Source: Ignavibacteriota bacterium (GTDB taxonomy: Bacteria; Bacteroidota; Ignavibacteria; UBA10030). From it: a DNA stretch of 64,000 nt. Within the stretch, counting starts at the first letter, position 1. Each line of letters begins with the position of its first letter. Below the pieces are notes generated by a model. That model saw nothing but the letters and a program-made list of their open reading frames with translations. It ran no database searches and was not told where the DNA came from. The stretch lies in NCBI GenBank assembly GCA_963727825.1, contig CAVSHO010000011.1:1-64000 (forward strand). Direction: 5' to 3'. Made by a program: the position numbers and the translations under genes. Positions 3,858 through 61,900 of the stretch are shown one piece after another.

Positions 3858-4469
3858 TTAATCGGATTTCTTGATACTATTAATCATTAAATCAATGGCT
3901 GCGTATGGATTACTACGAGCTGAATATATGAGCCCTTTTGGTATCATAATTATTGAATACTGTGTTCCCTTCGAAACATCAAGGAAATAGCCGTGATAAT
4001 GTAGAGAATCTGTAACAATATTTTTACAAATCGTTCTACTTGTAGCCCAAATGTGAAAACATCTTAGATGATATTTAGTGTTGAATTCGGTGATTGTATC
4101 GATACTGACAATCTGTGCACAATCTCCCATATTTTCATAAGGCGGATGTAGTGCCCAAAATTTTGCAATACCTTTTGCGATATCGATGCTATCTAAAATA
4201 TGAATACTATCCGAAGACCATGGTTCAACTAAGAGCATATATGCTGCAAGAATCCTTTTTACATTCTTGGAAAGTGAAATAATGTGACCTTGAATATCAA
4301 AGAAATAGCCCGGCACTGAATCAATGGTAAAGAATTTATTTGCATTGATAGCTCTAATATTTTCTTTCGTTGGAGCTTTTTCGAGTTGTGATGAGTCTTG
4401 ACGATTTGCCATTTGCCCAAAGGTAAACTGTATGAATAATAAAAAGAGAATGATGTACGATGATTTCAT
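3858..4469 (-). CDS. Cassette secreted hypothetical protein
   Basis: 203 aa, signal peptide MKSSYIILFLLFIQFTFG. Confidence 0.75.
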   Translation of the reverse strand: MKSSYIILFLLFIQFTFGQMANRQDSSQLEKAPTKENIRAINANKFFTIDSVPGYFFDIQGHIISLSKNVKRILAAYMLLVEPWSSDSIHILDSIDIAKGIAKFWALHPPYENMGDCAQIVSIDTITEFNTKYHLRCFHIWATSRTICKNIVTDSLHYHGYFLDVSKGTQYSIIMIPKGLIYSARSNPYAAIDLMINSIKKSD

Positions 4470-4482
4470 GTTTTTTGTTGCC

Positions 4483-4630
4483 GGCTAACGGACGGGCGCT
4501 AAGCTGCGGCGTTGATAACTTTCCAAACACACAAAACGAAATAGGTTCATTCTATCAACTTTCAATTAAACACAAAACCTATGCACGCAATGTAAATCGC
4601 ACCCAGCTCATTCCGTCAGCTTGAGCGCCT
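4483..4630 (-). repeat. attC site 7, interrupted by two IS110-family elements (remainder 7362-7371)
   Basis: GGCTAAC...CAGCTTGAGCGCCT, then IS sequence; CTGGTTAGGC resumes at 7362. Confidence 0.93.
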
Positions 4631-4670
4631 CGTATGTTGAGTCTGTGACACTTATATTTGTATCGTAATT

Positions 4671-4857
4671 CATTGGCAAAGTCATAGGAGAGATAGGAGC
4701 GTCTAGATATCTTCCCAGAAGAAGAATATCGTTAACCAGATACTTCTCCCTATGACTTTGTGCTTCTCCAGAATCTGAACAGTACTTTGAGATCCATACT
4801 TCTTGACGTGGAATCCCGTATAACGCACGAGTCTAGATCATACAGAAGCTGCCAATG
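4671..4857 (+). ncRNA. Predicted bridge RNA of IS-A (target loop plus donor loop)
   Basis: Closing stem CATTGGC/GCCAATG; stem CAAAGTCATAGG/CCTATGACTTTG enclosing GAGCGTCT and TAACCAG (match attC); stem GCTTCT/AGAAGC enclosing ACAGTACTT and AACGCACGAG (match circle junction). Confidence 0.85.
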
Positions 4858-4895
4858 TTTCTCTTTTCTTAACCTCTATTTCAAGGAGCTTTACT

Positions 4896-5981
4896 ATGAA
4901 TATCTTAAAACAAACCGTCGGTATCGATGTCTCCTACAAAACTTTCGATGCCAGATTCGGTACCATCGATACTCAACAAGAAATCAACCTATCCGCCTCT
5001 AAATCCTTTAAAAACTCACAGGCTGGATTCAAACTCTTCCTGCGATGGCTTATGAAATTTATCCTCTCTAATGATATTCCCCTCGTCTTTGTGATGGAAG
5101 CCACCGGTGTCTATTATGAACACCTCGCTCACTTCCTCCTTGAGCACGGTTATCACCTCGCCGTCGTTCTACCCAATAAAATAAGAAATTATGCCAAATC
5201 CCTCGAATCTAAATCCAAAACTGATCCTATCGATGCCGCTACTATTACTCGATTCGGACTTGAACGCAAACTCTCATTCTGGACTCCACCTTCAGATACT
5301 CTCAAAACCCTACGCGACTTATGCAGGGAATATCATTGCCTCAAAACTAATATCACACAAATTAAGAATCAACTCCACGCTCTCAAATCTTCTTTCAAGC
5401 CTCACAAAGAGTCTTTCAAACGCAAGACACAACTCCTCATATTTCTCGAACGTCAGGTATCGCTTATTAATAAAGAACTCCATGCATTAGTTAAGACCGA
5501 GCCTGATCTGGCCCAACACCTCAAGAATATCAAAACTGCCAAAGGTCTCGGCGATATTACCATTCTCACCGTTTTAGCTGAGACCCGATGCTTTGAACTC
5601 GTCACCAATCAAAAACAACTTACCAGCTACGCTGGGTTCGACATCGTCTTTAACGACTCCGGCTTGAAAAAAGGAAAAACCTCCATCTCCAAAAAAGGCA
5701 ATTCCTTTATCCGTAAAGCTCTCTTTATGCCTGCCCTCTCTGCCTGTCGGGCTAATCCTCAAATGAAAAAACTATATCAACGCCTTGTCGCTAAAGGCAA
5801 AAATAAAAAACTTGCCATCATTGCCGTCGCCCGTAAATTACTCTTACTGATTTACACTCTCTGGAAATCTAATTCTGTCTATATCCCCAATTATAAACCA
5901 TTGCTCTCGTTGTTGTCCCTGAACAAATTTAAATCATTCGCCCCTGCTTGTTCTTTGACATATTTTCTCTATCGCTCTTGA
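4896..5981 (+). CDS. IS110-family transposase/recombinase (IS-A)
   Basis: GIDVS, VMEATG, KTDPIDA (DEDD RuvC-like), NDSG serine loop, KKGNSFIRKAL, AIIAVARKLL; RBS AAGGAG. Confidence 0.95.
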   Translation: MNILKQTVGIDVSYKTFDARFGTIDTQQEINLSASKSFKNSQAGFKLFLRWLMKFILSNDIPLVFVMEATGVYYEHLAHFLLEHGYHLAVVLPNKIRNYAKSLESKSKTDPIDAATITRFGLERKLSFWTPPSDTLKTLRDLCREYHCLKTNITQIKNQLHALKSSFKPHKESFKRKTQLLIFLERQVSLINKELHALVKTEPDLAQHLKNIKTAKGLGDITILTVLAETRCFELVTNQKQLTSYAGFDIVFNDSGLKKGKTSISKKGNSFIRKALFMPALSACRANPQMKKLYQRLVAKGKNKKLAIIAVARKLLLLIYTLWKSNSVYIPNYKPLLSLLSLNKFKSFAPACSLTYFLYRS

Positions 5982-6081
5982 CTTTTATCACAGTACCTGG
6001 ATATTACAAAAAAGGAACCTCCCGATTTCGTATGTTTAAGATTATCAAGGTCATTAACCAACAAAATAAAAGGAGGTTCCC

Positions 6082-7083
6082 ATGTATTACTCAGGTATAG
6101 ATTTGCATTCAGATAATTCTTACATCACCACAATCGATGAGAGTGGCACAATCGTAAAACGACAACGCCTCGAGAATAACGACGAACTTGTTCTCGATTA
6201 CTTCCACTCTCTGCCCGGTCCTCATCAGGCAGTCGTCGAGTCTACAACAGGTTGGTATTGGCTCAACGATCTCCTCGGCGATAACGGCATCGAGCTTGTC
6301 CTTGCTCATGCCAAATATCTCAAAGCCATCAGCTATGCTAAAGTTAAAACAGATAAAGTCGATTCGCAAACTCTCGCTACACTTTTACGACAAGGCCTTA
6401 TTCCACAAGCACACAAGATCAGCCGTGAACTCCGTGGATTACGCGATACCATGCGCATCCGGCTTAGACTCGTTCAACAACGAACCGCTTGCCTGCTGCG
6501 TCTTTATAGCATTTATGCAAAATTTAACGGCTCTGTCCCTGATCCCTATCGCTTCCAGCTGGCTGTATTAGAGCATACACGCAATACCTTCAGCGATCAA
6601 ATCCTTGCCTTAGAAAAGTCTCTGCATCCTGTCCTGATCCCTAACGACGACATCCAACGACTCTTGAACATTCCAGGTATCGGCAAGCTCTCTGCATTTA
6701 CCATTTACTTAGAAATCGACGGCATAGAACGCTTTATCTCTGATAAACACTTTGTCTCCTATTGCCGTCTCGTGCCTGCTGCTGATAACTCCAATCGCAC
6801 TGTGCATCACCGCTCAAGTAAAGACGGCAATAAATATCTTAAAATCGCTTTCACTGATGCCGCTGTGCATGCCATTCAATTTTATCCTGAATACAAACGC
6901 TTCTATCAGAAATTAGCTCGGCGCTCTTGTGAAGCAACTGCTCGAACCGTCGTTGCAAAAGAACTTGCGAAAATTGTTTTCTATGTCTTAAAGAACAAAA
7001 CACAATATAAAGGTCTCAAAGGACAGCCGATCAGCCGGCATAAATCTCAGCAGTGGCCGCGCCTCTCAAGCCCGGATGCCTAA
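6082..7083 (+). CDS. IS110-family (IS1111-type) transposase
   Basis: GIDLH, VVEST, KTDKVDS (DEDD), IPGIG, SKDGNKYLK. Confidence 0.95.
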   Translation: MYYSGIDLHSDNSYITTIDESGTIVKRQRLENNDELVLDYFHSLPGPHQAVVESTTGWYWLNDLLGDNGIELVLAHAKYLKAISYAKVKTDKVDSQTLATLLRQGLIPQAHKISRELRGLRDTMRIRLRLVQQRTACLLRLYSIYAKFNGSVPDPYRFQLAVLEHTRNTFSDQILALEKSLHPVLIPNDDIQRLLNIPGIGKLSAFTIYLEIDGIERFISDKHFVSYCRLVPAADNSNRTVHHRSSKDGNKYLKIAFTDAAVHAIQFYPEYKRFYQKLARRSCEATARTVVAKELAKIVFYVLKNKTQYKGLKGQPISRHKSQQWPRLSSPDA

Positions 7084-7329
7084 CTGGTAATCTTTATTAC
7101 CTTCGCCTGGATTGGGAAGAGAGTGCGCTGTGCCGTGGTAATATCTGGAATATCTCGCTCAACGAGATAAGTCCCGCTTTCACCCCGGGATAAATCCGTA
7201 AACTGGTTTGGACGGCATTGCTCCGGTAATCGTCTGTCTATTTGATAGAGAACGCGGCATCGGCACGGGTTCGGTCGTCAATAATTGTCAATGAACTCTG
7301 CATTCCGTTTGTACGGAACGCATCGGGCG
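7070..7329 (+). ncRNA. Predicted seek/bridge RNA of IS-B (also in the other three copies)
   Basis: GCCTAACTGG and CGCCTGG match the attC target; GTAATATCTGG and TAAACTGG match the circle junction; stems GCCCGGATGC/GCATCGGGC and TGCCGT/ACGGCA. Confidence 0.8.
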
Positions 7330-7371
7330 TATTTTATCTACTTGACTCTTTCCTTTTTAAACTGGTTAGGC

Positions 7372-8271
7372 GCCGTTTTATTAGTAATGCAGAAATATTC
7401 TTAATGATCTGGCAAATCCTTCCAGATTCGGAAATAAAGTATTTGAGTCGATATTCATTTTACCTAGGTCACGAATAATATCTGAAAGTACAAGATCGTT
7501 TGGTACAATGAATTTGATTAATGGTGGCAATTCATCGCTTGATTCGGCTGTCTCAAATTTATCGATAGATAAATTAATTGCGTTCTGATCATCAAATTCA
7601 ACAGACGAATGATTTAATGTTCCGCTAATATTTTCGTTTAAATGTCGAATTAATAATGTTGGACAAGAAAAGTACCCTTTTGCATTGAATTTCGTTCGTT
7701 TAATTGTCTTGGTTAGTCAAGAATAACACCTTTTTTAGGATTTATTCATTTTGTAGCATCTAACAAATCGTTTAACTCAATATAATCATTTAAGATTTGG
7801 TCAAAGGGATTTTTGGGAATACAATTGGTTTTCAGAGTCCATACTGCAGCTTCATCATTCGCTTCTTCAAGTGCAAAAAATGATTGTCGATATAAAATGA
7901 ATAACTCAAAATTCGACTGAAACGAGCTTTGTCTACATAATATTGGATAAAAGCCACCCACTCTAAGAATGTCCGTTTCACTGGGTATGGATTAATAATA
8001 CTACCACGATGGCATTTTCTTCTTGAACCAATGAGATTACTTATTCTACCTTCATCTTGTACTTGTTCTGGCTAAGAATATCCTGATGTATTGATCCAGC
8101 CATCTCGTTCTAATGAGGACATAATATCCCAACTTGCGAAATTCTATTGACGCTCGAAATACCCAGTTGTGGAAATTACTATTGTGATGACACAAGCTTC
8201 TCTGAATATTTTATGTATTTCAGATACTTTTGATATTTAAAAATTTTGTAGCTACATAATTAATAGCTGGC
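7372..8271 (-). pseudogene. Degenerate or ORF-less cassette
   Basis: 900 bp between attC cores with only short ORF fragments. Confidence 0.55.
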
Positions 8272-8462: not shown

Positions 8463-9827
8463 ATATTACAAAAAAGGAACCTCCCGATTTCGTATGTTTA
8501 AGATTATCAAGGTCATTAACCAACAAAATAAAAGGAGGTTCCCATGTATTACTCAGGTATAGATTTGCATTCAGATAATTCTTACATCACCACAATCGAT
8601 GAGAGTGGCACAATCGTAAAACGACAACGCCTCGAGAATAACGACGAACTTGTTCTCGATTACTTCCACTCTCTGCCCGGTCCTCATCAGGCAGTCGTCG
8701 AGTCTACAACAGGTTGGTATTGGCTCAACGATCTCCTCGGCGATAACGGCATCGAGCTTGTCCTTGCTCATGCCAAATATCTCAAAGCCATCAGCTATGC
8801 TAAAGTTAAAACAGATAAAGTCGATTCGCAAACTCTCGCTACACTTTTACGACAAGGCCTTATTCCACAAGCACACAAGATCAGCCGTGAACTCCGTGGA
8901 TTACGCGATACCATGCGCATCCGGCTTAGACTCGTTCAACAACGAACCGCTTGCCTGCTGCGTCTTTATAGCATTTATGCAAAATTTAACGGCTCTGTCC
9001 CTGATCCCTATCGCTTCCAGCTGGCTGTATTAGAGCATACACGCAATACCTTCAGCGATCAAATCCTTGCCTTAGAAAAGTCTCTGCATCCTGTCCTGAT
9101 CCCTAACGACGACATCCAACGACTCTTGAACATTCCAGGTATCGGCAAGCTCTCTGCATTTACCATTTACTTAGAAATCGACGGCATAGAACGCTTTATC
9201 TCTGATAAACACTTTGTCTCCTATTGCCGTCTCGTGCCTGCTGCTGATAACTCCAATCGCACTGTGCATCACCGCTCAAGTAAAGACGGCAATAAATATC
9301 TTAAAATCGCTTTCACTGATGCCGCTGTGCATGCCATTCAATTTTATCCTGAATACAAACGCTTCTATCAGAAATTAGCTCGGCGCTCTTGTGAAGCAAC
9401 TGCTCGAACCGTCGTTGCAAAAGAACTTGCGAAAATTGTTTTCTATGTCTTAAAGAACAAAACACAATATAAAGGTCTCAAAGGACAGCCGATCAGCCGG
9501 CATAAATCTCAGCAGTGGCCGCGCCTCTCAAGCCCGGATGCCTAACTGGTAATCTTTATTACCTTCGCCTGGATTGGGAAGAGAGTGCGCTGTGCCGTGG
9601 TAATATCTGGAATATCTCGCTCAACGAGATAAGTCCCGCTTTCACCCCGGGATAAATCCGTAAACTGGTTTGGACGGCATTGCTCCGGTAATCGTCTGTC
9701 TATTTGATAGAGAACGCGGCATCGGCACGGGTTCGGTCGTCAATAATTGTCAATGAACTCTGCATTCCGTTTGTACGGAACGCATCGGGCGTATTTTATC
9801 TACTTGACTCTTTCCTTTTTAAACTGG
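8463..9827 (+). mobile_element. IS1111-type element (IS-B) copy 2
   Basis: Same ends, protein and non-coding region as copy 1; CTGG junctions in attC. Confidence 0.95.
8544..9545 (+). CDS. IS1111-type transposase
   Basis: Protein identical to 6082-7083. Confidence 0.95.
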   Translation: MYYSGIDLHSDNSYITTIDESGTIVKRQRLENNDELVLDYFHSLPGPHQAVVESTTGWYWLNDLLGDNGIELVLAHAKYLKAISYAKVKTDKVDSQTLATLLRQGLIPQAHKISRELRGLRDTMRIRLRLVQQRTACLLRLYSIYAKFNGSVPDPYRFQLAVLEHTRNTFSDQILALEKSLHPVLIPNDDIQRLLNIPGIGKLSAFTIYLEIDGIERFISDKHFVSYCRLVPAADNSNRTVHHRSSKDGNKYLKIAFTDAAVHAIQFYPEYKRFYQKLARRSCEATARTVVAKELAKIVFYVLKNKTQYKGLKGQPISRHKSQQWPRLSSPDA

Positions 9828-19807: not shown

Positions 19808-21172
19808 ATATTACAAAAAAGGAACCTCCCGATTTCGTATGTTTAAGATTATCAAGGTCATTAACCAACAAAATAAAAGGAGGTTCCCATGTATTACTCA
19901 GGTATAGATTTGCATTCAGATAATTCTTACATCACCACAATCGATGAGAGTGGCACAATCGTAAAACGACAACGCCTCGAGAATAACGACGAACTTGTTC
20001 TCGATTACTTCCACTCTCTGCCCGGTCCTCATCAGGCAGTCGTCGAGTCTACAACAGGTTGGTATTGGCTCAACGATCTCCTCGGCGATAACGGCATCGA
20101 GCTTGTCCTTGCTCATGCCAAATATCTCAAAGCCATCAGCTATGCTAAAGTTAAAACAGATAAAGTCGATTCGCAAACTCTCGCTACACTTTTACGACAA
20201 GGCCTTATTCCACAAGCACACAAGATCAGCCGTGAACTCCGTGGATTACGCGATACCATGCGCATCCGGCTTAGACTCGTTCAACAACGAACCGCTTGCC
20301 TGCTGCGTCTTTATAGCATTTATGCAAAATTTAACGGCTCTGTCCCTGATCCCTATCGCTTCCAGCTGGCTGTATTAGAGCATACACGCAATACCTTCAG
20401 CGATCAAATCCTTGCCTTAGAAAAGTCTCTGCATCCTGTCCTGATCCCTAACGACGACATCCAACGACTCTTGAACATTCCAGGTATCGGCAAGCTCTCT
20501 GCATTTACCATTTACTTAGAAATCGACGGCATAGAACGCTTTATCTCTGATAAACACTTTGTCTCCTATTGCCGTCTCGTGCCTGCTGCTGATAACTCCA
20601 ATCGCACTGTGCATCACCGCTCAAGTAAAGACGGCAATAAATATCTTAAAATCGCTTTCACTGATGCCGCTGTGCATGCCATTCAATTTTATCCTGAATA
20701 CAAACGCTTCTATCAGAAATTAGCTCGGCGCTCTTGTGAAGCAACTGCTCGAACCGTCGTTGCAAAAGAACTTGCGAAAATTGTTTTCTATGTCTTAAAG
20801 AACAAAACACAATATAAAGGTCTCAAAGGACAGCCGATCAGCCGGCATAAATCTCAGCAGTGGCCGCGCCTCTCAAGCCCGGATGCCTAACTGGTAATCT
20901 TTATTACCTTCGCCTGGATTGGGAAGAGAGTGCGCTGTGCCGTGGTAATATCTGGAATATCTCGCTCAACGAGATAAGTCCCGCTTTCACCCCGGGATAA
21001 ATCCGTAAACTGGTTTGGACGGCATTGCTCCGGTAATCGTCTGTCTATTTGATAGAGAACGCGGCATCGGCACGGGTTCGGTCGTCAATAATTGTCAATG
21101 AACTCTGCATTCCGTTTGTACGGAACGCATCGGGCGTATTTTATCTACTTGACTCTTTCCTTTTTAAACTGG
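19808..21172 (+). mobile_element. IS1111-type element (IS-B) copy 3
   Basis: Same ends and protein; CTGG junctions in attC. Confidence 0.95.
19889..20890 (+). CDS. IS1111-type transposase
   Basis: Protein identical to 6082-7083. Confidence 0.95.
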   Translation: MYYSGIDLHSDNSYITTIDESGTIVKRQRLENNDELVLDYFHSLPGPHQAVVESTTGWYWLNDLLGDNGIELVLAHAKYLKAISYAKVKTDKVDSQTLATLLRQGLIPQAHKISRELRGLRDTMRIRLRLVQQRTACLLRLYSIYAKFNGSVPDPYRFQLAVLEHTRNTFSDQILALEKSLHPVLIPNDDIQRLLNIPGIGKLSAFTIYLEIDGIERFISDKHFVSYCRLVPAADNSNRTVHHRSSKDGNKYLKIAFTDAAVHAIQFYPEYKRFYQKLARRSCEATARTVVAKELAKIVFYVLKNKTQYKGLKGQPISRHKSQQWPRLSSPDA

Positions 21173-23838: not shown

Positions 23839-25203
23839 ATATTACAAAAAAGGAACCTCCCGATTTCGTATGTTTAAGATTATCAAGGTCATTAACCAAC
23901 AAAATAAAAGGAGGTTCCCATGTATTACTCAGGTATAGATTTGCATTCAGATAATTCTTACATCACCACAATCGATGAGAGTGGCACAATCGTAAAACGA
24001 CAACGCCTCGAGAATAACGACGAACTTGTTCTCGATTACTTCCACTCTCTGCCCGGTCCTCATCAGGCAGTCGTCGAGTCTACAACAGGTTGGTATTGGC
24101 TCAACGATCTCCTCGGCGATAACGGCATCGAGCTTGTCCTTGCTCATGCCAAATATCTCAAAGCCATCAGCTATGCTAAAGTTAAAACAGATAAAGTCGA
24201 TTCGCAAACTCTCGCTACACTTTTACGACAAGGCCTTATTCCACAAGCACACAAGATCAGCCGTGAACTCCGTGGATTACGCGATACCATGCGCATCCGG
24301 CTTAGACTCGTTCAACAACGAACCGCTTGCCTGCTGCGTCTTTATAGCATTTATGCAAAATTTAACGGCTCTGTCCCTGATCCCTATCGCTTCCAGCTGG
24401 CTGTATTAGAGCATACACGCAATACCTTCAGCGATCAAATCCTTGCCTTAGAAAAGTCTCTGCATCCTGTCCTGATCCCTAACGACGACATCCAACGACT
24501 CTTGAACATTCCAGGTATCGGCAAGCTCTCTGCATTTACCATTTACTTAGAAATCGACGGCATAGAACGCTTTATCTCTGATAAACACTTTGTCTCCTAT
24601 TGCCGTCTCGTGCCTGCTGCTGATAACTCCAATCGCACTGTGCATCACCGCTCAAGTAAAGACGGCAATAAATATCTTAAAATCGCTTTCACTGATGCCG
24701 CTGTGCATGCCATTCAATTTTATCCTGAATACAAACGCTTCTATCAGAAATTAGCTCGGCGCTCTTGTGAAGCAACTGCTCGAACCGTCGTTGCAAAAGA
24801 ACTTGCGAAAATTGTTTTCTATGTCTTAAAGAACAAAACACAATATAAAGGTCTCAAAGGACAGCCGATCAGCCGGCATAAATCTCAGCAGTGGCCGCGC
24901 CTCTCAAGCCCGGATGCCTAACTGGTAATCTTTATTACCTTCGCCTGGATTGGGAAGAGAGTGCGCTGTGCCGTGGTAATATCTGGAATATCTCGCTCAA
25001 CGAGATAAGTCCCGCTTTCACCCCGGGATAAATCCGTAAACTGGTTTGGACGGCATTGCTCCGGTAATCGTCTGTCTATTTGATAGAGAACGCGGCATCG
25101 GCACGGGTTCGGTCGTCAATAATTGTCAATGAACTCTGCATTCCGTTTGTACGGAACGCATCGGGCGTATTTTATCTACTTGACTCTTTCCTTTTTAAAC
25201 TGG
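23839..25203 (+). mobile_element. IS1111-type element (IS-B) copy 4
   Basis: Same ends and protein; CTGG junctions in attC. Confidence 0.95.
23920..24921 (+). CDS. IS1111-type transposase
   Basis: Protein identical to 6082-7083. Confidence 0.95.
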   Translation: MYYSGIDLHSDNSYITTIDESGTIVKRQRLENNDELVLDYFHSLPGPHQAVVESTTGWYWLNDLLGDNGIELVLAHAKYLKAISYAKVKTDKVDSQTLATLLRQGLIPQAHKISRELRGLRDTMRIRLRLVQQRTACLLRLYSIYAKFNGSVPDPYRFQLAVLEHTRNTFSDQILALEKSLHPVLIPNDDIQRLLNIPGIGKLSAFTIYLEIDGIERFISDKHFVSYCRLVPAADNSNRTVHHRSSKDGNKYLKIAFTDAAVHAIQFYPEYKRFYQKLARRSCEATARTVVAKELAKIVFYVLKNKTQYKGLKGQPISRHKSQQWPRLSSPDA

Positions 25204-29606: not shown

Positions 29607-29690
29607 ACCTAACTATGATTAGACTGCACCCGGCAGCCTAACTCGCGTTTTAAGAGTGTTAGACCGCTGATTTCAGCCTAATATGCGTGT
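29607..29690 (-). other. attI site (crossover G|TTAGGT at 29613/29612) with upstream repeats
   Basis: Minus strand GTCTAATCATAG|TTAGGTGCC at the start of the first cassette with no attC arm beyond it; CAGCCTAA repeats at 29634 and 29674. Confidence 0.75.
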
Positions 29691-29877
29691 TTTGTATTAT
29701 AGACTGCGTACGCCGCAGTCCTCCGAAAAGATGCATGCTGTTAGTTTCTGTCCCTATATTCCTCTTGAGAGAATCCGCAACAGCCTAATCCCTTTCTTTG
29801 AAAATAACTTCTTTGTATTTTCTCTTAAGGTTTGCGCTAAACTATTGAATGTCTTTATCAATTGCAAGGGAAATATT

Positions 29878-30837
29878 ATGGCTAACGAAAAAATTCTACA
29901 ACAAGTCCACAATTGCATCCGTACTCTGCATCTTAGTCTTCGCACTGAAGAAGCTTATTGCAATTGGATCAAACGATTTATGAATTTTCACGCTCAAAAA
30001 AATGTGCACGCTATGCGTGAACCGCAGATAGAACAGTTCCTCACTTCGCTCGCCGTGGATGAACAAGTATCAGCATCTACACAAAATCAGGCGCTTAATG
30101 CGATTCTCTTTTTATACCGCGAAGTATTAAATGTGAAGATCGGACTCCTAAAAGATATAATCCGCGCAAAACGAACTGTGCGCATTCCTGTCGTCTTCTC
30201 CCGGGAAGAAATCCAAACTATTTTACATCAGCTCCAGGGAACGTCGGGACTAATTTGTTCGCTATTGTACGGAAGCGGAATGCGCTTATTAGAGTGTATG
30301 CAACTGCGCATAAAGGATATTGATTTTTTGAGGAAACAAATTATTGTCAGGGAAGGAAAGGGCGAAAAAGACCGGATAACACCTCTACCTGTGTCGTTAA
30401 TTCCTCAACTGGAACGGCAAATCGCCAGAGTAAAAGTGATACATCAGGAAGATCGCGCCGCTGGTTATGGCGATGTCTATTTGCCGGATGCTATTCGTAA
30501 AAAATTCCCCCGTGCGGCAAAAGAATTCATGTGGCAATACGTTTTCCCAGCTTCCAAGCGTTCAATGGATCCTATTACAGGCGCGATTCAGCGGCATCAT
30601 CTTGATGAAAGCGCTGTTCAGCGTGCCTTCAAACTTGCATTGCAAAAATCGAAAGTTACAAAGCAGGGAACTGTTCATTCACTCAGACATTCATTCGCAA
30701 CGCATGTGTTGGAATCAGGATACGATATCCGAGTTGTGCAGGAATTATTAGGACATAAGGATGTCCGAACTACTCAAATTTATACACACGTAATGAATCG
30801 CCCTGGAATTTCTGTCCGCAGCCCGCTGGATACATAA
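29878..30837 (+). CDS. intI: Integron integrase (tyrosine recombinase)
   Basis: SASTQNQALNA, LLYGSGMR, GKGEKDR, IntI-specific insert (VYLPDA..KKFP.A...WQYVFP...RHH), HSLRHSFATH, LGHKDVRTTQIYTHV. Confidence 0.97.
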   Translation: MANEKILQQVHNCIRTLHLSLRTEEAYCNWIKRFMNFHAQKNVHAMREPQIEQFLTSLAVDEQVSASTQNQALNAILFLYREVLNVKIGLLKDIIRAKRTVRIPVVFSREEIQTILHQLQGTSGLICSLLYGSGMRLLECMQLRIKDIDFLRKQIIVREGKGEKDRITPLPVSLIPQLERQIARVKVIHQEDRAAGYGDVYLPDAIRKKFPRAAKEFMWQYVFPASKRSMDPITGAIQRHHLDESAVQRAFKLALQKSKVTKQGTVHSLRHSFATHVLESGYDIRVVQELLGHKDVRTTQIYTHVMNRPGISVRSPLDT

Positions 30838-58956: not shown

Positions 58957-61900
58957 CTATTTAAAATTGAATTTGTTGCAGAAATCCATGGCTTCTTCTC
59001 TTGTCTTGAAAACACCAACAAAAACACGATATCGTAAGCCCATCGAAGGAATACGTGCAGTCATCACGTACGCTTGTAGTCTGTGAAATTTCTCAACTTT
59101 TTTCGCCACTCGCCCCACTTTTGATTTCGTAACCCATGGAGAGATTTGAAGAATATAACCTGTCTTCTCTGCATTAGAAATCACAATACACGGCTTTTCA
59201 GTTTTAATTCTTGGCGATGGTTGTTCGACTTTCTCTACAGCTGCTTGCGGTGTAGGTACGACCTTCTCTTTAACTTCTTGTGGCGGAGGTACGACTTTTT
59301 CTACAGCTACTTGCGGTGAAGGTACGACTTTCTCTACAGCTACTTGTGGTGGAGGTATGACTTTCTCTTCAGCTGCTTGCGGTGTAGGTACGATCTTCTC
59401 TTTAGCGACTTGTGGCGGAGGTACGACTTTTTCTACAGCTACTTGTGGTGTAGGTACGACCTTCTCTTCAGCTGCTTGCGGTGTAGGTACGACTTTCTCT
59501 TCAAGTATCTGAGGCTTTTCGGTGGCAATAGTTCTTTGTTCACCTATCTTTCCGAGTATAGCCGTAGTGTCTCTCTGGAAGGATTCGAGCACGAATTCGA
59601 GCCCTTCCACTACAAAGCCATCCTTATTTTGTAAAATATTAACTGGCAATGTTATCGGTGAAGAAGTCATGTATAATCTCCGTAATTGGGCGGTATCAAT
59701 TCGGGCAAAATATGAACCAGGTGCCAAACCGAGAAAACTAAAAAAGCCATCGGCCTCAGAAAGAGTGCTCGCAACAAGACTAGAGTCATCACTACGATAA
59801 AAACATACTATAATACGTCCCTGTCCTTTCTTTTTATTGTTTTCACTAAGATAAACTGTTCCTGAAACTTCACCTACTACAGCGATAGGAATCTCTATCA
59901 ATTTGAATTGGTTAGGATCGATAAAAACGCTTATGGTTGGCTTTTTTATTTGCCAACTAATATTGTCAAAACTGTTGCGGTCGAGTTCAATCGTATAAGT
60001 CGTATAGGGTTCTAGATCGAATACGCGTATGGTTGTATCCCGATCGTCACGTTCTATGCGACCACTATTGATACTAAAATTAAGTCCAAAAGCTTTTGGT
60101 TCACCTTTATCATGCCGACCATTGCAATTAAGATCAAGGAAAGGAACGATGACGATTCCTCCTCTGCCAACACTTGGCCGATTATCTGTACCAATGTAAT
60201 TTGTTTTGCCATCGAACAATAAACTTCCACTGGCTGACTGAATAAAGGTGTTTGTATTGTTATCGCGCCTGGCTGATGCACTGGCCTGTGCATAGGGAAA
60301 TTCATACCGTAACACAATCTGATAACTATTGATTTTGTTGATGAAATCTTTTTCATAAATCATATCTAGATAACTATGACCAAACATTTGTTTCTCAAAT
60401 TCACATTTCGCAAAGGTCATCTTTTTTTGATTGTAATCATATTGCGTCTGAGGCGTCATAATGAATCCGTTCGGAAGCCTAAAAGACAGAGAAAGGTTGC
60501 CATAAATGTATGGAGGGAATGGATCCGTATACGACGCATAGGTACTGGAGTTGACACTTACACCGAGAATTGAACCAGACAATAACAAATCAGACATAAT
60601 GTATTTCATCGTAGGCAAAACAATTTGATTAATAGTAAACCGAGAATATATTGTGGAATTCCCGAAACTAAAAGGCATAGATATCACAGCTTTACGATCT
60701 TCAAGAAAATTGGTATTGATTGCTTCTTGGTCTTTATCGTACTTGGTATAATCAATTTCAAACTGCAGGTTCGAAGGCAAGCGGTAATTAAGTATGCCTT
60801 TCGACCTTACGCCGTTTACATATTCGCCGGAGAAAAGAAGGCTGGAAGTAAGACTGAGCGAAGTATTTAAAAAAGGCATGCTTTTCCCGGAAGCGACTGA
60901 TGAAAAGTATTCTATTCCACTGCCAACCGTAATATGTCGATCCACACCATAATTGAAATTGATGCGTGAAAACAGATTATCACTTCCATCTTCCACCGTA
61001 CCGGTGCTCACGGTATATTCAAATTCCTTTTGTGGAAGAAAATTAAAAGGTATTGTTATATTTTGTAGTGTGGTACGCTCTTCGCCATCAGGTCCATAAA
61101 AACGAAGTTTAATATCTGAATTTCCATACACAAGCGGGACTTCAAAAAGATAAAAGCCGGAAGCGTCGGACTTTACATAATCCACTAATACATTATTCAC
61201 ATAGAGTTCCACTATCCAATTGGGCTCAGTGTAGTCACTCAATGTATAGGAACCGAACGATCGTCTGTAAGTCGTTGGCGTATTAGTTAATTGCGCTCCC
61301 ACGATAGGCGCATAAATGGATGAGATAGATTGTGTAGAGATTGTGCCTGCCATTATTTGCCGAAAGGCTTGATTATCGTTGTTGACAAAATGCCAGAGGT
61401 AATATTGCTGCCTCATGGTAAAAGGCTCGTTGTTGTCATAATTGATCAGAACTTTCGTTTCTCCTCCCCCCAGAGTAGCTCCGAGCCCTAAGTTAAGTCT
61501 CACATCATTCCAACCTTGATATTGTTCTGTATTGATCGACCAATCTGCCATCCCAAAACGGAAAAATGGATAATCCCTTCCAATGATGGTATCGGCTTTA
61601 ATTTCTCCTTTGAGACGGCTGATGTTTTTACGCATCTGTTCTTGCCGCATTTCGCGAATTGCAGGCAATTCAAATTTTGTATTCAGTATGACCGAAAGAC
61701 TACGGAAATTAAACGTACAATATAATCCGAACACTTCGCCAAAATAATTCGATTTCAAATAGAGATTAGTTTCTGTCCGGATCAGATCATTCGGCTTTAG
61801 AGTAAAAACTTTATTTTGATATAGAATGCGCCGGTTCACCCTATCAACGAGATAAGTTGCTTGTCGGTCGATAAAAAAGCCAGACACCGATTCAAATCCT

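What the first reader, a model, noticed from the sequence alone, without database searches (positions are those of the whole stretch)
4631..5998. IS110-group bridge recombinase whose RNA guides spell the integron attC site
Seen: the 265-bp left end contains two stem-enclosed loops. Loop 1 has GAGCGTCT (4697-4704; target left GAGCGCCT) and TAACCAG (4733-4739; exact reverse complement of CTGGTTA, the native attC right side). Loop 2 has ACAGTACTT (4779-4787; donor left ACAGTACCT) and AACGCACGAG (4822-4831; pairs with donor right CTCGTATGTT with one G:T and one mismatch). Both left guides have U for C just 5' of the CT core, a parallel U:G wobble. Established: IS621-type elements use a left-end bridge RNA with LTG/RTG/LDG/RDG and a CT core; the attC-targeting elements I know (ISPa21, ISPst6) are IS1111-type. 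Inference: an independently evolved attC-targeting bridge recombinase with guides that can be reprogrammed. Novelty not confirmed without a search.
Basis: partly seen in the sequence, partly recalled or inferred. Interest (0 to 1): 0.92.

Follow-up and report, generated by a model that had tools for sequence, protein, structure and literature searches.

The report
RNA-guided insertion sequence aimed at integron attC
This is a small mobile element of the IS110 (IS621-like) type whose own guide RNA is written to match the recombination site of integron gene cassettes, showing that a second branch of this RNA-guided family has specialised on integrons.

Summary
Window 4631-5998 is a complete IS110-group element, here called IS-A. 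It has a 265-nt left end, a 361-aa DEDD/Ser transposase and a 17-nt right end, and is bounded by CT cores. It sits in an attC site of a chromosomal integron (intI at 29683-30837, about 20 attC repeats). The left end folds into a closing stem and two internal loops. All four matched together in 0 of 20,000 shuffles.

In relatives, 20 of 22 right flanks read GGTTAG, and 11 of 18 left flanks read GAGCGCCT. More distant relatives (37-50% identity) have other targets, and their loop sequences change to match. RNA-library contigs from four runs cover the guide-RNA region.

Two corrections. The in-situ right flank is the end of a second attC-targeting element (IS-B, IS1111-type, four copies), not attC. 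The "parallel wobble" is wrong: the donor-guide U faces the core C.

Mechanism is that of IS621. What is new is attC targeting from the IS110 group. My literature searches found it reported only for the IS1111 group.

The parts
4483..4630 (.). Larger part of the interrupted attC site: R box GGCTAAC, L box, variable middle, and second L box ending ...CAGCTTGAGCGC-CT.
   Evidence: Member of the roughly 20-copy attC repeat families. An intact copy folds as R/L stems with bulged G and T.
4629..4630 (+). CT core, left copy (target side).
   Evidence: CT precedes CGTATGTT in 18 of 18 relatives that have a left end.
4631..5998 (+). IS-A: complete IS110-group insertion sequence, 1368 bp including one CT core.
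   Evidence: Thirteen relatives align end to end over 1-1368. Boundaries are conserved. Single full copy in the genome.
4633..4638 (+). TATGTT, a -10-like hexamer of a junction promoter that exists only when the right and left ends are joined in a circle.
   Evidence: invariant in 18 of 18 left ends. It lies 17 nt from the TTGACT in the right end when the ends are joined. Inference by analogy with IS621 (PMC11208158, passage seen).
4671..4857 (+). Bridge RNA gene: closing stem CATTGGCA/TGCCAATG enclosing a target-binding loop module (about 4677-4760) and a donor-binding loop module (about 4765-4849).
   Evidence: RNA-library contigs cover 4671-4840 in 4 runs.
4697..4704 (+). Left target guide GAGCGUCU, same sense as left target GAGCGCCT (7 of 8, with U opposite the C just 5' of the core).
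4733..4739 (+). Right target guide UAACCAG, the reverse complement of CTGGTTA.
   Evidence: invariant in 28 of 28 rows; right flank GGTTAG in 20 of 22.
4779..4787 (+). Left donor guide ACAGUAC-UU, same sense as right end ACAGTAC-CT (7 of 7 non-core; U opposite the core C).
   Evidence: covaries with the right end in L043, L048 and L039.
4822..4831 (+). Right donor guide AACGCACGAG, which pairs with CT-CGTATGTT (8 Watson-Crick pairs, 1 G:T, 1 C:A).
4896..5981 (+). Transposase (bridge recombinase), 361 aa, with motifs VGIDVS, MEATG, KTDPIDA and SKKGN.
   Evidence: The tail after residue 336 differs from a 99%-identical 345-aa relative.
5978..5983 (+). TTGACT, a -35-like hexamer in the right end.
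   Evidence: invariant in 22 of 22 right ends.
5990..5998 (+). Donor left half ACAGTAC plus the CT core (right copy).
6001..7365 (+). IS-B: an IS1111-type element abutting IS-A in the same attC. Transposase at 6082-7083.
7365..7374 (.). Remaining R box of the interrupted attC (GTTAGGCGCC).
29683..30837 (+). Integron integrase gene intI.
   Evidence: TIGR02249 scores 447 bits against a cut-off of 265.

Best explanation
IS-A is an IS621-like, bridge-RNA-guided insertion sequence whose target-binding loop is written for the attC site of integron cassettes.

**Inferred cycle**
1. The element excises as a circle. This joins TTGACT in the right end to TATGTT in the left end across a 17-nt spacer, forming a promoter.
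2. A structured RNA of roughly 190 nt is made from the left end.
3. Its donor loop holds the right-end/left-end joint ACAGTAC-CT-CGTATGTT.
4. Its target loop holds GAGCGC-CT-GGTTA. This is the junction between the L box and the R box of attC, on the arm next to the end of the cassette gene.
5. The DEDD/Ser recombinase exchanges strands at the CT core.

The insertion splits the attC, separating one R box from the rest, so it should block IntI folding and recombination at that site.

In this window the element most likely entered an attC already occupied by IS-B, using the hybrid site GAGCGC-CT-GGATA, which has one mismatch to the right target guide.

**Shown here:** anatomy, guide complementarity, conservation, insertion-site specificity, guide/target covariation across relatives, and presence in RNA libraries.
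**Inferred:** the circle, the promoter, catalysis, and the effect on the integron.
For: **Protein.**
- Domains and family.
- Solved relatives: ISCro4 2e-31 and IS621 4e-27, with the VGIDVS / MEATG / KTDPIDA / SKKGN motifs aligned.
- The IS621 catalytic residues D11, E60, D102, D105 and S241 are as given in PMC11208158 (passages).

**Architecture.** Left end 265 nt, right end 17 nt. No subterminal inverted repeat.

**RNA.**
- The consensus fold of 22 distinct left ends has 52 pairs: a closing stem and two internal-loop modules, with variation concentrated in the apical loops.
- All four guides together matched in 0 of 20,000 shuffles.

**Insertion site.**
- Right flank GGTTAG in 20 of 22. The exceptions are L025 GGATATTAC and L037 GGTTAAG.
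- Left flank GAGCGCCT in 11 of 18. The other 7 are AAGCGCCT x2, GAACCGCT x2, GAGTGCCT, GATGTGCT and GAGCCGCT.
- An upstream attC arm CTAAC..TAAGCTG was found within 200 nt in 10 of the 28 loci with a left flank.
- The 63%-identical L041 also lies in an attC-like site.
- An RNA-library contig of X17 shows the empty site ...GAGCGCCT followed by GGTTAGAC.

**Guides in relatives** (28 rows including the window, 23 distinct left ends).
- Right target guide: invariant in 28 of 28.
- Left donor guide: 27 of 28.
- Right donor guide: 23 AACGCACGAG and 5 AATGCACGAG.
- Left target guide: varies, and is a perfect match to its own flank in L013/L014 and L030.

**Covariation**, using eight elements with different targets.
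- Own left target against own left target guide: 35 of 56 non-core matches. The permuted mean is 17.0, and 2 of 40,320 permutations reach 35.
- Six elements with a right flank: 27 of 30 against a mean of 9.2, and 1 of 720 permutations reaches 27.
- Donor guides covary with the element ends: ACAGTAC, GCAGTAC, ATAGTAT and ACAGTAT.

**Promoter.** TTGACT is invariant in 22 of 22 right ends and TATGTT in 18 of 18 left ends.

**RNA libraries.** Short contigs of 66-168 nt cover 4671-4840 in X15-X18.
Against: - Only one copy exists in this genome, so recent activity here is not shown.
- The left target guide is imperfect. 14 of 28 rows carry GAGCGGCU, and most of these sit in GAGCGCCT or GAGCCGCT sites with one mismatch. 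L054 matches its left flank at only 2 of 7 non-core positions.
- Stems are almost invariant: only 2 of 52 pairs show double-sided changes. Structural covariation within the clade is therefore weak.
- No sigma-70-type promoter or simple terminator was found in the integrated left end.
- The RNA evidence is contigs of relatives from RNA libraries. By the tool's own caution these may contain DNA, and they cannot give strand, ends or level.
- I chose the loop positions used by structural homology, by eye.
- The transposase tail differs from its close relatives.
Confidence: 0.88

Rival explanations
1. IS-A is simply a member of the already described IS1111-attC group (ISKpn4, ISPst6, ISPa25 type), so nothing here is new.
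For: It has the same kind of target, one end of attC (PMC11187229 passages), and belongs to the same protein superfamily.
Against: - The long non-coding region and the guides lie upstream of the gene, not downstream.
- There is no subterminal inverted repeat.
- It scores 99-113 bits to IS621 and ISCro4, against 37.7 bits over 99 residues to IS5075.
- The best plasmid relatives are Hymenobacter elements at 42-46% identity (H1-H4; lower hits fall to 34%), none in a class 1 integron context.
Confidence: 0.03
2. IS-A targets the left end of IS-B rather than attC, because that is what flanks it here and in L025.
For: The right flank is GGATATTAC in the window and in L025.
Against: - 20 of 22 relatives are flanked by GGTTAG, with no IS-B adjoining.
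- The right target guide is exactly complementary to CTGGTTA and has one mismatch to CTGGATA.
Confidence: 0.04
3. The guide matches are chance or a by-product, the left end is only a 5' untranslated region or promoter, and the protein alone chooses the site.
For: The whole left end does not fold better than shuffles (z-score -0.54), and stem covariation within the clade is slight.
Against: - All four matches together occurred in 0 of 20,000 shuffles.
- Guide and flank covary across eight targets.
- Donor guides covary with the element ends.
- The mechanism is demonstrated for IS621 and for ISEc21 (PMC11208160 and PMC11187229, abstracts and passages).
Confidence: 0.03
4. IS-A entered the empty attC first, and IS-B then inserted at the IS-A/attC right junction.
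For: The junction ACAGTAC-CTGG-TTAGGC keeps IS-B's core and its right half-site. A 2026 preprint title and abstract report half-match recombination (search listing).
Against: - That order gives IS-B a wholly mismatched left half-site.
- The other order gives IS-A a single mismatch.
- The three other IS-B copies all have GAGCGCC on the left.
Confidence: 0.25

Closest known systems
IS621 and ISCro4 (IS110 group bridge recombinases)
   Same: - Same protein fold family.
- Guide RNA encoded in the long left end.
- Two internal loops, with the left guide on the 5' side and the right guide on the 3' side, and both target guides covering a CT core.
- A donor of the form ACAGTAx-CT-xGTAT.
- A promoter split across the right-end/left-end joint (PMC11208160 and PMC11208158 passages).
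   Different: - The target is attC rather than REP-like sequence.
- A closing stem encloses both loops.
- The right target guide is 7 nt rather than 4 nt.
- The left donor guide does not pair with the core C.
- Protein identity is low.
- The hosts are Bacteroidota/Ignavibacteriota metagenome-assembled genomes.
IS1111-attC group (ISKpn4, ISPst6, ISPa25, ISPa21)
   Same: RNA-guided DEDD elements that insert at one end of attC sites (PMC11187229 passages; titles of Post & Hall 2009 and Tetu & Holmes 2008 seen in reference lists only).
   Different: Their guide (seekRNA) is encoded downstream of the gene, and they have subterminal inverted repeats. IS-A has neither feature. I could not read their exact insertion point: PMC2447020 is not held.
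IS-B of this window
   Same: Same attC, same orientation, with cut sites 2 bp apart (GAGCGCCT^GG^TTAGGC).
   Different: - IS1111-type layout: 81-nt left end, 282-nt right end, and a 9-nt subterminal repeat.
- Only 26% identity to IS-A over 282 residues.
- TGG core.
- Four copies.
Group IIC-attC introns
   Same: Another mobile element that finds attC through RNA-DNA pairing (PMC3001079, abstract seen in the listing).
   Different: It is a retroelement with a reverse transcriptase. The enzyme and chemistry are unrelated.

Membership tests
IS110 family, IS110 group (bridge recombinase elements) | RuvC-like DEDD domain plus a Tnp domain with a conserved serine. | tested here: met
   PF01548 (5.7e-28) and PF02371 (2.5e-19). 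The motifs align with ISCro4. Assigning catalytic roles to these residues is by homology to IS621.
IS110 family, IS110 group (bridge recombinase elements) | Long non-coding left end upstream of the gene and a short right end. | tested here: met
   265 nt against 17 nt. The criterion is as stated in PMC11208160 and PMC11187229.
IS110 family, IS110 group (bridge recombinase elements) | Two-loop RNA with guides complementary to the target and to the joined element ends. | tested here: met
IS110 family, IS110 group (bridge recombinase elements) | Conserved core dinucleotide at both junctions. | tested here: met
   CT lies at 4629-4630 and 5997-5998, and at the ends of all relatives.
IS110 family, IS110 group (bridge recombinase elements) | The RNA is made and bound by the recombinase, and a circular intermediate forms. 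| tested here: inconclusive
   RNA-library contigs cover 4671-4840. They give no strand or ends, and DNA carry-over is not excluded. The circle was not testable.
IS110 family, IS110 group (bridge recombinase elements) | Match to a curated bridge-RNA model. | tested here: not met
   No Rfam family matched at gathering score or at E<=1 over the left end. I do not know whether Rfam 15 holds such a family.
IS1111-attC group | Long non-coding region and guide RNA downstream of the transposase gene. | tested here: not met
   Only 17 nt follow the stop codon.
IS1111-attC group | Subterminal inverted repeats. | tested here: not met
   None of 8 nt or more between the two ends. IS-B does have one.
IS1111-attC group | Insertion at a fixed point in attC. 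| tested here: met
Integron attC site (the target) | Array beside intI, R boxes RYYYAAC / GTTRRRY, paired L boxes with bulged bases. | tested here: met
   - intI scores 447 bits.
- There are 19-20 repeat copies.
- The fold shows a bulged G and T.

No attC covariance model was available, and the consensus motifs are recalled.

The most novel reading that the evidence does not exclude
attC sites of environmental chromosomal integrons are a shared niche that RNA-guided DEDD elements have entered at least twice from opposite sides of the family.

- One is a left-end-encoded bridge-RNA clade (IS-A, at least 63% identical members across peat, soil and sediment Bacteroidota/Ignavibacteriota).
- The other is a right-end-encoded clade (IS-B).
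- Their cut sites lie 2 bp apart, and they nest into one another repeatedly (window and L025).

The loosely paired position next to the core in the left target guide (U, G, C or A in relatives) may let a single guide serve the variable L box of many attC sites.
Probability: 0.55. Interest if true: 0.6.

Novelty: new member of a known kind. Interest (0 to 1): 0.5.

Why it matters
- It is a natural example of bridge-RNA reprogramming onto a site class of wide interest. It shows that integron recombination sites attract RNA-guided insertion sequences from both branches of the family, not only the IS1111 branch known from clinical integrons.
- Such insertions split attC sites and should freeze neighbouring cassettes, so they bear on how cassette arrays decay.
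- The clade has many close relatives with known flanks and a 7-nt right target guide. That makes it a compact natural data set for studying mismatch tolerance in bridge recombinases.
- It does not change the known mechanism.

Tried and rejected
- **Rfam.** No family matched at gathering score over the whole window. At E<=1 over 4560-7420 the only match was RF02469, below its cut-off, on the IS-B left end.
- **Promoter and terminator scan.** A sigma-70 promoter and terminator scan of 4560-4960 found nothing. I then looked at the joined ends instead.
- **Unconstrained covariation test.** An unconstrained best-match covariation matrix was too noisy for the 9-nt left target, with chance matches of 6-7 of 9. 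I replaced it with structurally fixed positions. Dropped:
  - L041, because it has the same target class as the window;
  - L038, because no right end was found;
  - L049, a duplicate target of L050;
  - L047, L046, L044, L052 and L045, because the contigs are cut;
  - L051 and L058, whose ends I could not place.
- **RNA libraries.** In one search, bins 4888-5070 had no cover in any of the four RNA runs, and the depths of the left-end contigs (16-114) exceeded those of the gene contigs (2-23). The tool warns that neither a gap nor contig depth may be read as evidence, so I do not count them.
- **Other copies in the genome.** The own-genome search found only one full IS-A copy, so there is no within-genome test of site choice.
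- **Literature.** None was found in that library. ISfinder, TnCentral and the supplements of the bridge-RNA and seekRNA papers, which list many elements and targets, could not be seen and may hold one.
- **IS-B guides.** Same-sense matches to left target plus core, and to left donor plus core, were found, along with a reverse-complement match to the left-end start. No right target guide was found, so this is left open.
- Structure prediction, complex prediction and the large profile search were not used, because the family assignment did not need them.
Full report
**Context.** The window holds a chromosomal integron. The ORF at 29683-30837 (+) matches the integron-integrase model TIGR02249 at 447 bits against a cut-off of 265. 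To its left, from about 1 to 27,260, lie 19-20 copies of a repeat of roughly 165 nt. On the plus strand each copy begins ...GCCTAACGG...CTAAGCTGCGGC and ends ...CGTCAGCTTGAG(NNN)CTGGTTAGGC. Small minus-strand ORFs sit between the copies. An intact copy, folded as single-stranded DNA, pairs the two R boxes and the two L boxes, with a bulged G and a bulged T. These repeats are therefore attC sites. The R-box consensus RYYYAAC/GTTRRRY is recalled, and no attC model was available. The plus strand of the window is the strand that carries the bulged bases.

**The element.** Window 4631-5998 (IS-A) is bounded by ...GAGCGC-CT|CGTATGTT... on the left and ...ACAGTAC-CT|GG... on the right.
- It encodes a 361-aa protein with PF01548 and PF02371.
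- The protein matches NF033542, 'IS110 family RNA-guided transposase', at 211 bits.
- Its nearest solved relatives are the bridge recombinases ISCro4 (2e-31) and IS621 (4e-27). The motifs VGIDVS, MEATG, KTDPIDA and SKKGN align. They correspond by homology to the IS621 catalytic residues named in PMC11208158 (passages).
- The non-coding left end is 265 nt and the right end is 17 nt. No subterminal inverted repeat was found.
- This is the IS110-group layout as defined in PMC11208160 and PMC11187229 (passages).
- Against IS5075, an IS1111-group member, IS-A scores only 37.7 bits over 99 residues.

**The RNA.**
- The single-sequence fold shows the first module clearly, although the whole left end folds no better than shuffles (z-score -0.54).
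- The consensus fold of 22 distinct left ends gives 52 pairs. They form a closing stem (4671-4678 with 4850-4857) and two modules, each with an outer stem, an internal loop and an inner stem-loop.
- The left guide lies on the 5' side of each internal loop and the right guide on the 3' side, as in IS621.
- Variation is concentrated in the apical loops and linkers. Only 2 of 52 pairs show double-sided change, because the sequences are close.
- In 20,000 dinucleotide shuffles the four matches were reached 1128, 234, 469 and 2020 times singly, and never together.

- First, the right flank in this window is not attC. It is the left end of a second element, IS-B.
- Second, the U in the left donor guide faces the core C (ACAGTAC-UU against ACAGTAC-CT). 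Only the U in the left target guide faces the base 5' of the core. The two are not parallel.

**Relatives.** The protein has thousands of database relatives. The best 120 are 67-99% identical, and most are 336-345 aa. Thirty-five loci were fetched from Bacteroidota and Ignavibacteriota metagenome-assembled genomes and from metagenome contigs.
- Right flanks: of 22 loci with a right end, 20 continue GGTTAG. L025 continues GGATATTACC, an IS-B relative again, and L037 continues GGTTAAG.
- Left flanks: of 18 loci with a left end aligned from base 1, 11 have GAGCGCCT. The rest have AAGCGCCT (2), GAACCGCT (2), GAGTGCCT, GATGTGCT and GAGCCGCT. The window's own attC copies vary at these same three positions.
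- An upstream attC arm lies within 200 nt in 10 of the 28 loci with a left flank.
- Guides in 28 rows, 23 of them distinct:
  - Right target guide: invariant.
  - Left donor guide: 27 of 28.
  - Right donor guide: AACGCACGAG in 23 and AATGCACGAG in 5.
  - Left target guide: GAGCGUCU in 8, GAGCGGCU in 14, GAGCGCCU in 2 (perfect to the flank), GAGCCGCU in 1 (perfect to the flank), GAGUCGCU in 1, GAGCGACA in 1 (flank CAGCGACT), and one aberrant (L004).
- The position next to the core is therefore often mismatched. This counts against strict pairing there.

**Family-level covariation.** A search of 400 further genomes of the same phylum (401 counting the window's own) found 13 of 401 with a relative at E<=1e-60, the window's genome among them. 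None of the 17 other genomes of the same family had one.
- L041 (63% identity) still sits in an attC-like site, with guides GAGCGACU and UAACCAG.
- L042, L043, L048, L054, L050 and L053 (41-50% over the best matches), and the Hymenobacter plasmid element L039 (43%), have other flanks.
- I took the 9 nt ending in CT before the inner stem and the 7 nt ending in AG after it. Own-pair non-core matches were then 35 of 56 for the left side. The permuted mean was 17.0, and 2 of 40,320 permutations reached 35.
- For the right side, own-pair matches were 27 of 30. The permuted mean was 9.2, and only the identity permutation of 720 reached 27.
- L054 is a poor fit on the left, at 2 of 7.
- The donor guides follow the element ends: ACAGTAC, GCAGTAC, ATAGTAT and ACAGTAT.
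- I chose the positions by eye from structural homology.

**Promoter and RNA evidence.**
- No sigma-70-type promoter is present in the integrated left end.
- Joining the ends places TTGACT (5978-5983) 17 nt from TATGTT (4633-4638). These hexamers are invariant in 22 of 22 right ends and 18 of 18 left ends.
- This mirrors the junction promoter reported for IS621 (PMC11208158 passage). It is inference here.
- Contigs from four RNA libraries cover 4671-4840 as short separate pieces. One contig shows an uninterrupted site ...GAGCGCCT then GGTTAGAC.
- The tool warns that such contigs may include DNA and give no strand, ends or level. I count this only as presence in RNA libraries.

**IS-B and order of insertion.**
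- IS-B (6001-7365) has four identical copies, all in this array.
- It has an 81-nt left end, a 282-nt right end, and a 9-nt subterminal repeat.
- It scores 57 bits to IS5075 over its full length, against 24-28 bits to IS621 and ISCro4.
- It duplicates TGG at GAGCGCC-TGG-TTAGGC. Relatives at 86-88% identity occupy the same spot in L005 and L025.
- The two cut sites are 2 bp apart.
- If IS-B came first, IS-A met GAGCGC-CT-GGATA, a single mismatch. The reverse order gives IS-B a wholly foreign left half-site. I therefore favour IS-B first, at about 3 to 1.

**Novelty.** In the papers I could search, attC targeting is described only for IS1111-type elements. ISfinder and the supplements were not available. 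The mechanism is that of IS621. The new point is the target and the convergence with the IS1111 side.

Noticed in passing
window 6001-7365, 8463-9827, 19808-21172, 23839-25203: IS-B has four identical copies and an IS1111-type layout (short left end, 282-nt right end, 9-nt subterminal repeat). Every copy sits at GAGCGCC-TGG-TTAGGC of an attC. Its right end holds CGCCTGG (7104), GTAATATC (7138) and TAAACTGG (7199), which match the left target, the left-end start (as reverse complement) and the right end. No right target guide was found.
   Followed up: partly
L002 (own genome C1:363255-363298, minus strand): A 43-nt piece of an IS-A-like left end (element nt 40-82, 95% identical) is joined directly to GGTTAAGG. 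It lies downstream of a degenerate attC arm (GCCTAACGGATGGC). It looks like a footprint left by deletion of most of an element.
   Followed up: partly
window 5997-6084 (-): A sub-threshold Rfam match (34.5 bits, cut-off 45) of RF02469 Ms_IGR-7, an actinobacterial sRNA family, falls on the IS-B left end.
   Followed up: no
L008, L010, L021, L024 left flanks: Small GC-rich hairpins of about 20 nt sit between CAGCTTG and AGCGCCT, inside the attC L box just upstream of the insertion point.
   Followed up: no
L055, L057, L059 (genome G240): Distant relatives of IS-A (40%) and IS-B (43%) lie side by side and divergent, about 400 nt apart, in at least three places in one genome.
   Followed up: no
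window 4461-4523: The conserved 5' arm of attC has very high summed contig depth in RNA libraries (up to 909 in X18). Many different loose ends on both sides suggest many transcribed cassettes in those communities.
   Followed up: no
window 5900-5981: The transposase tail after residue 336 differs from a 99%-identical 345-aa relative and from most relatives (336-345 aa). This suggests an indel near the 3' end of this copy.
   Followed up: partly
window 59185-59547: A tandem array of a 33-nt unit with at least eight overlapping register copies.
   Followed up: no
window 29683-29892: The intI ORF has about 70 residues ahead of the start of the integrase model match (71-383). The start codon may be called too early.
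   Followed up: no
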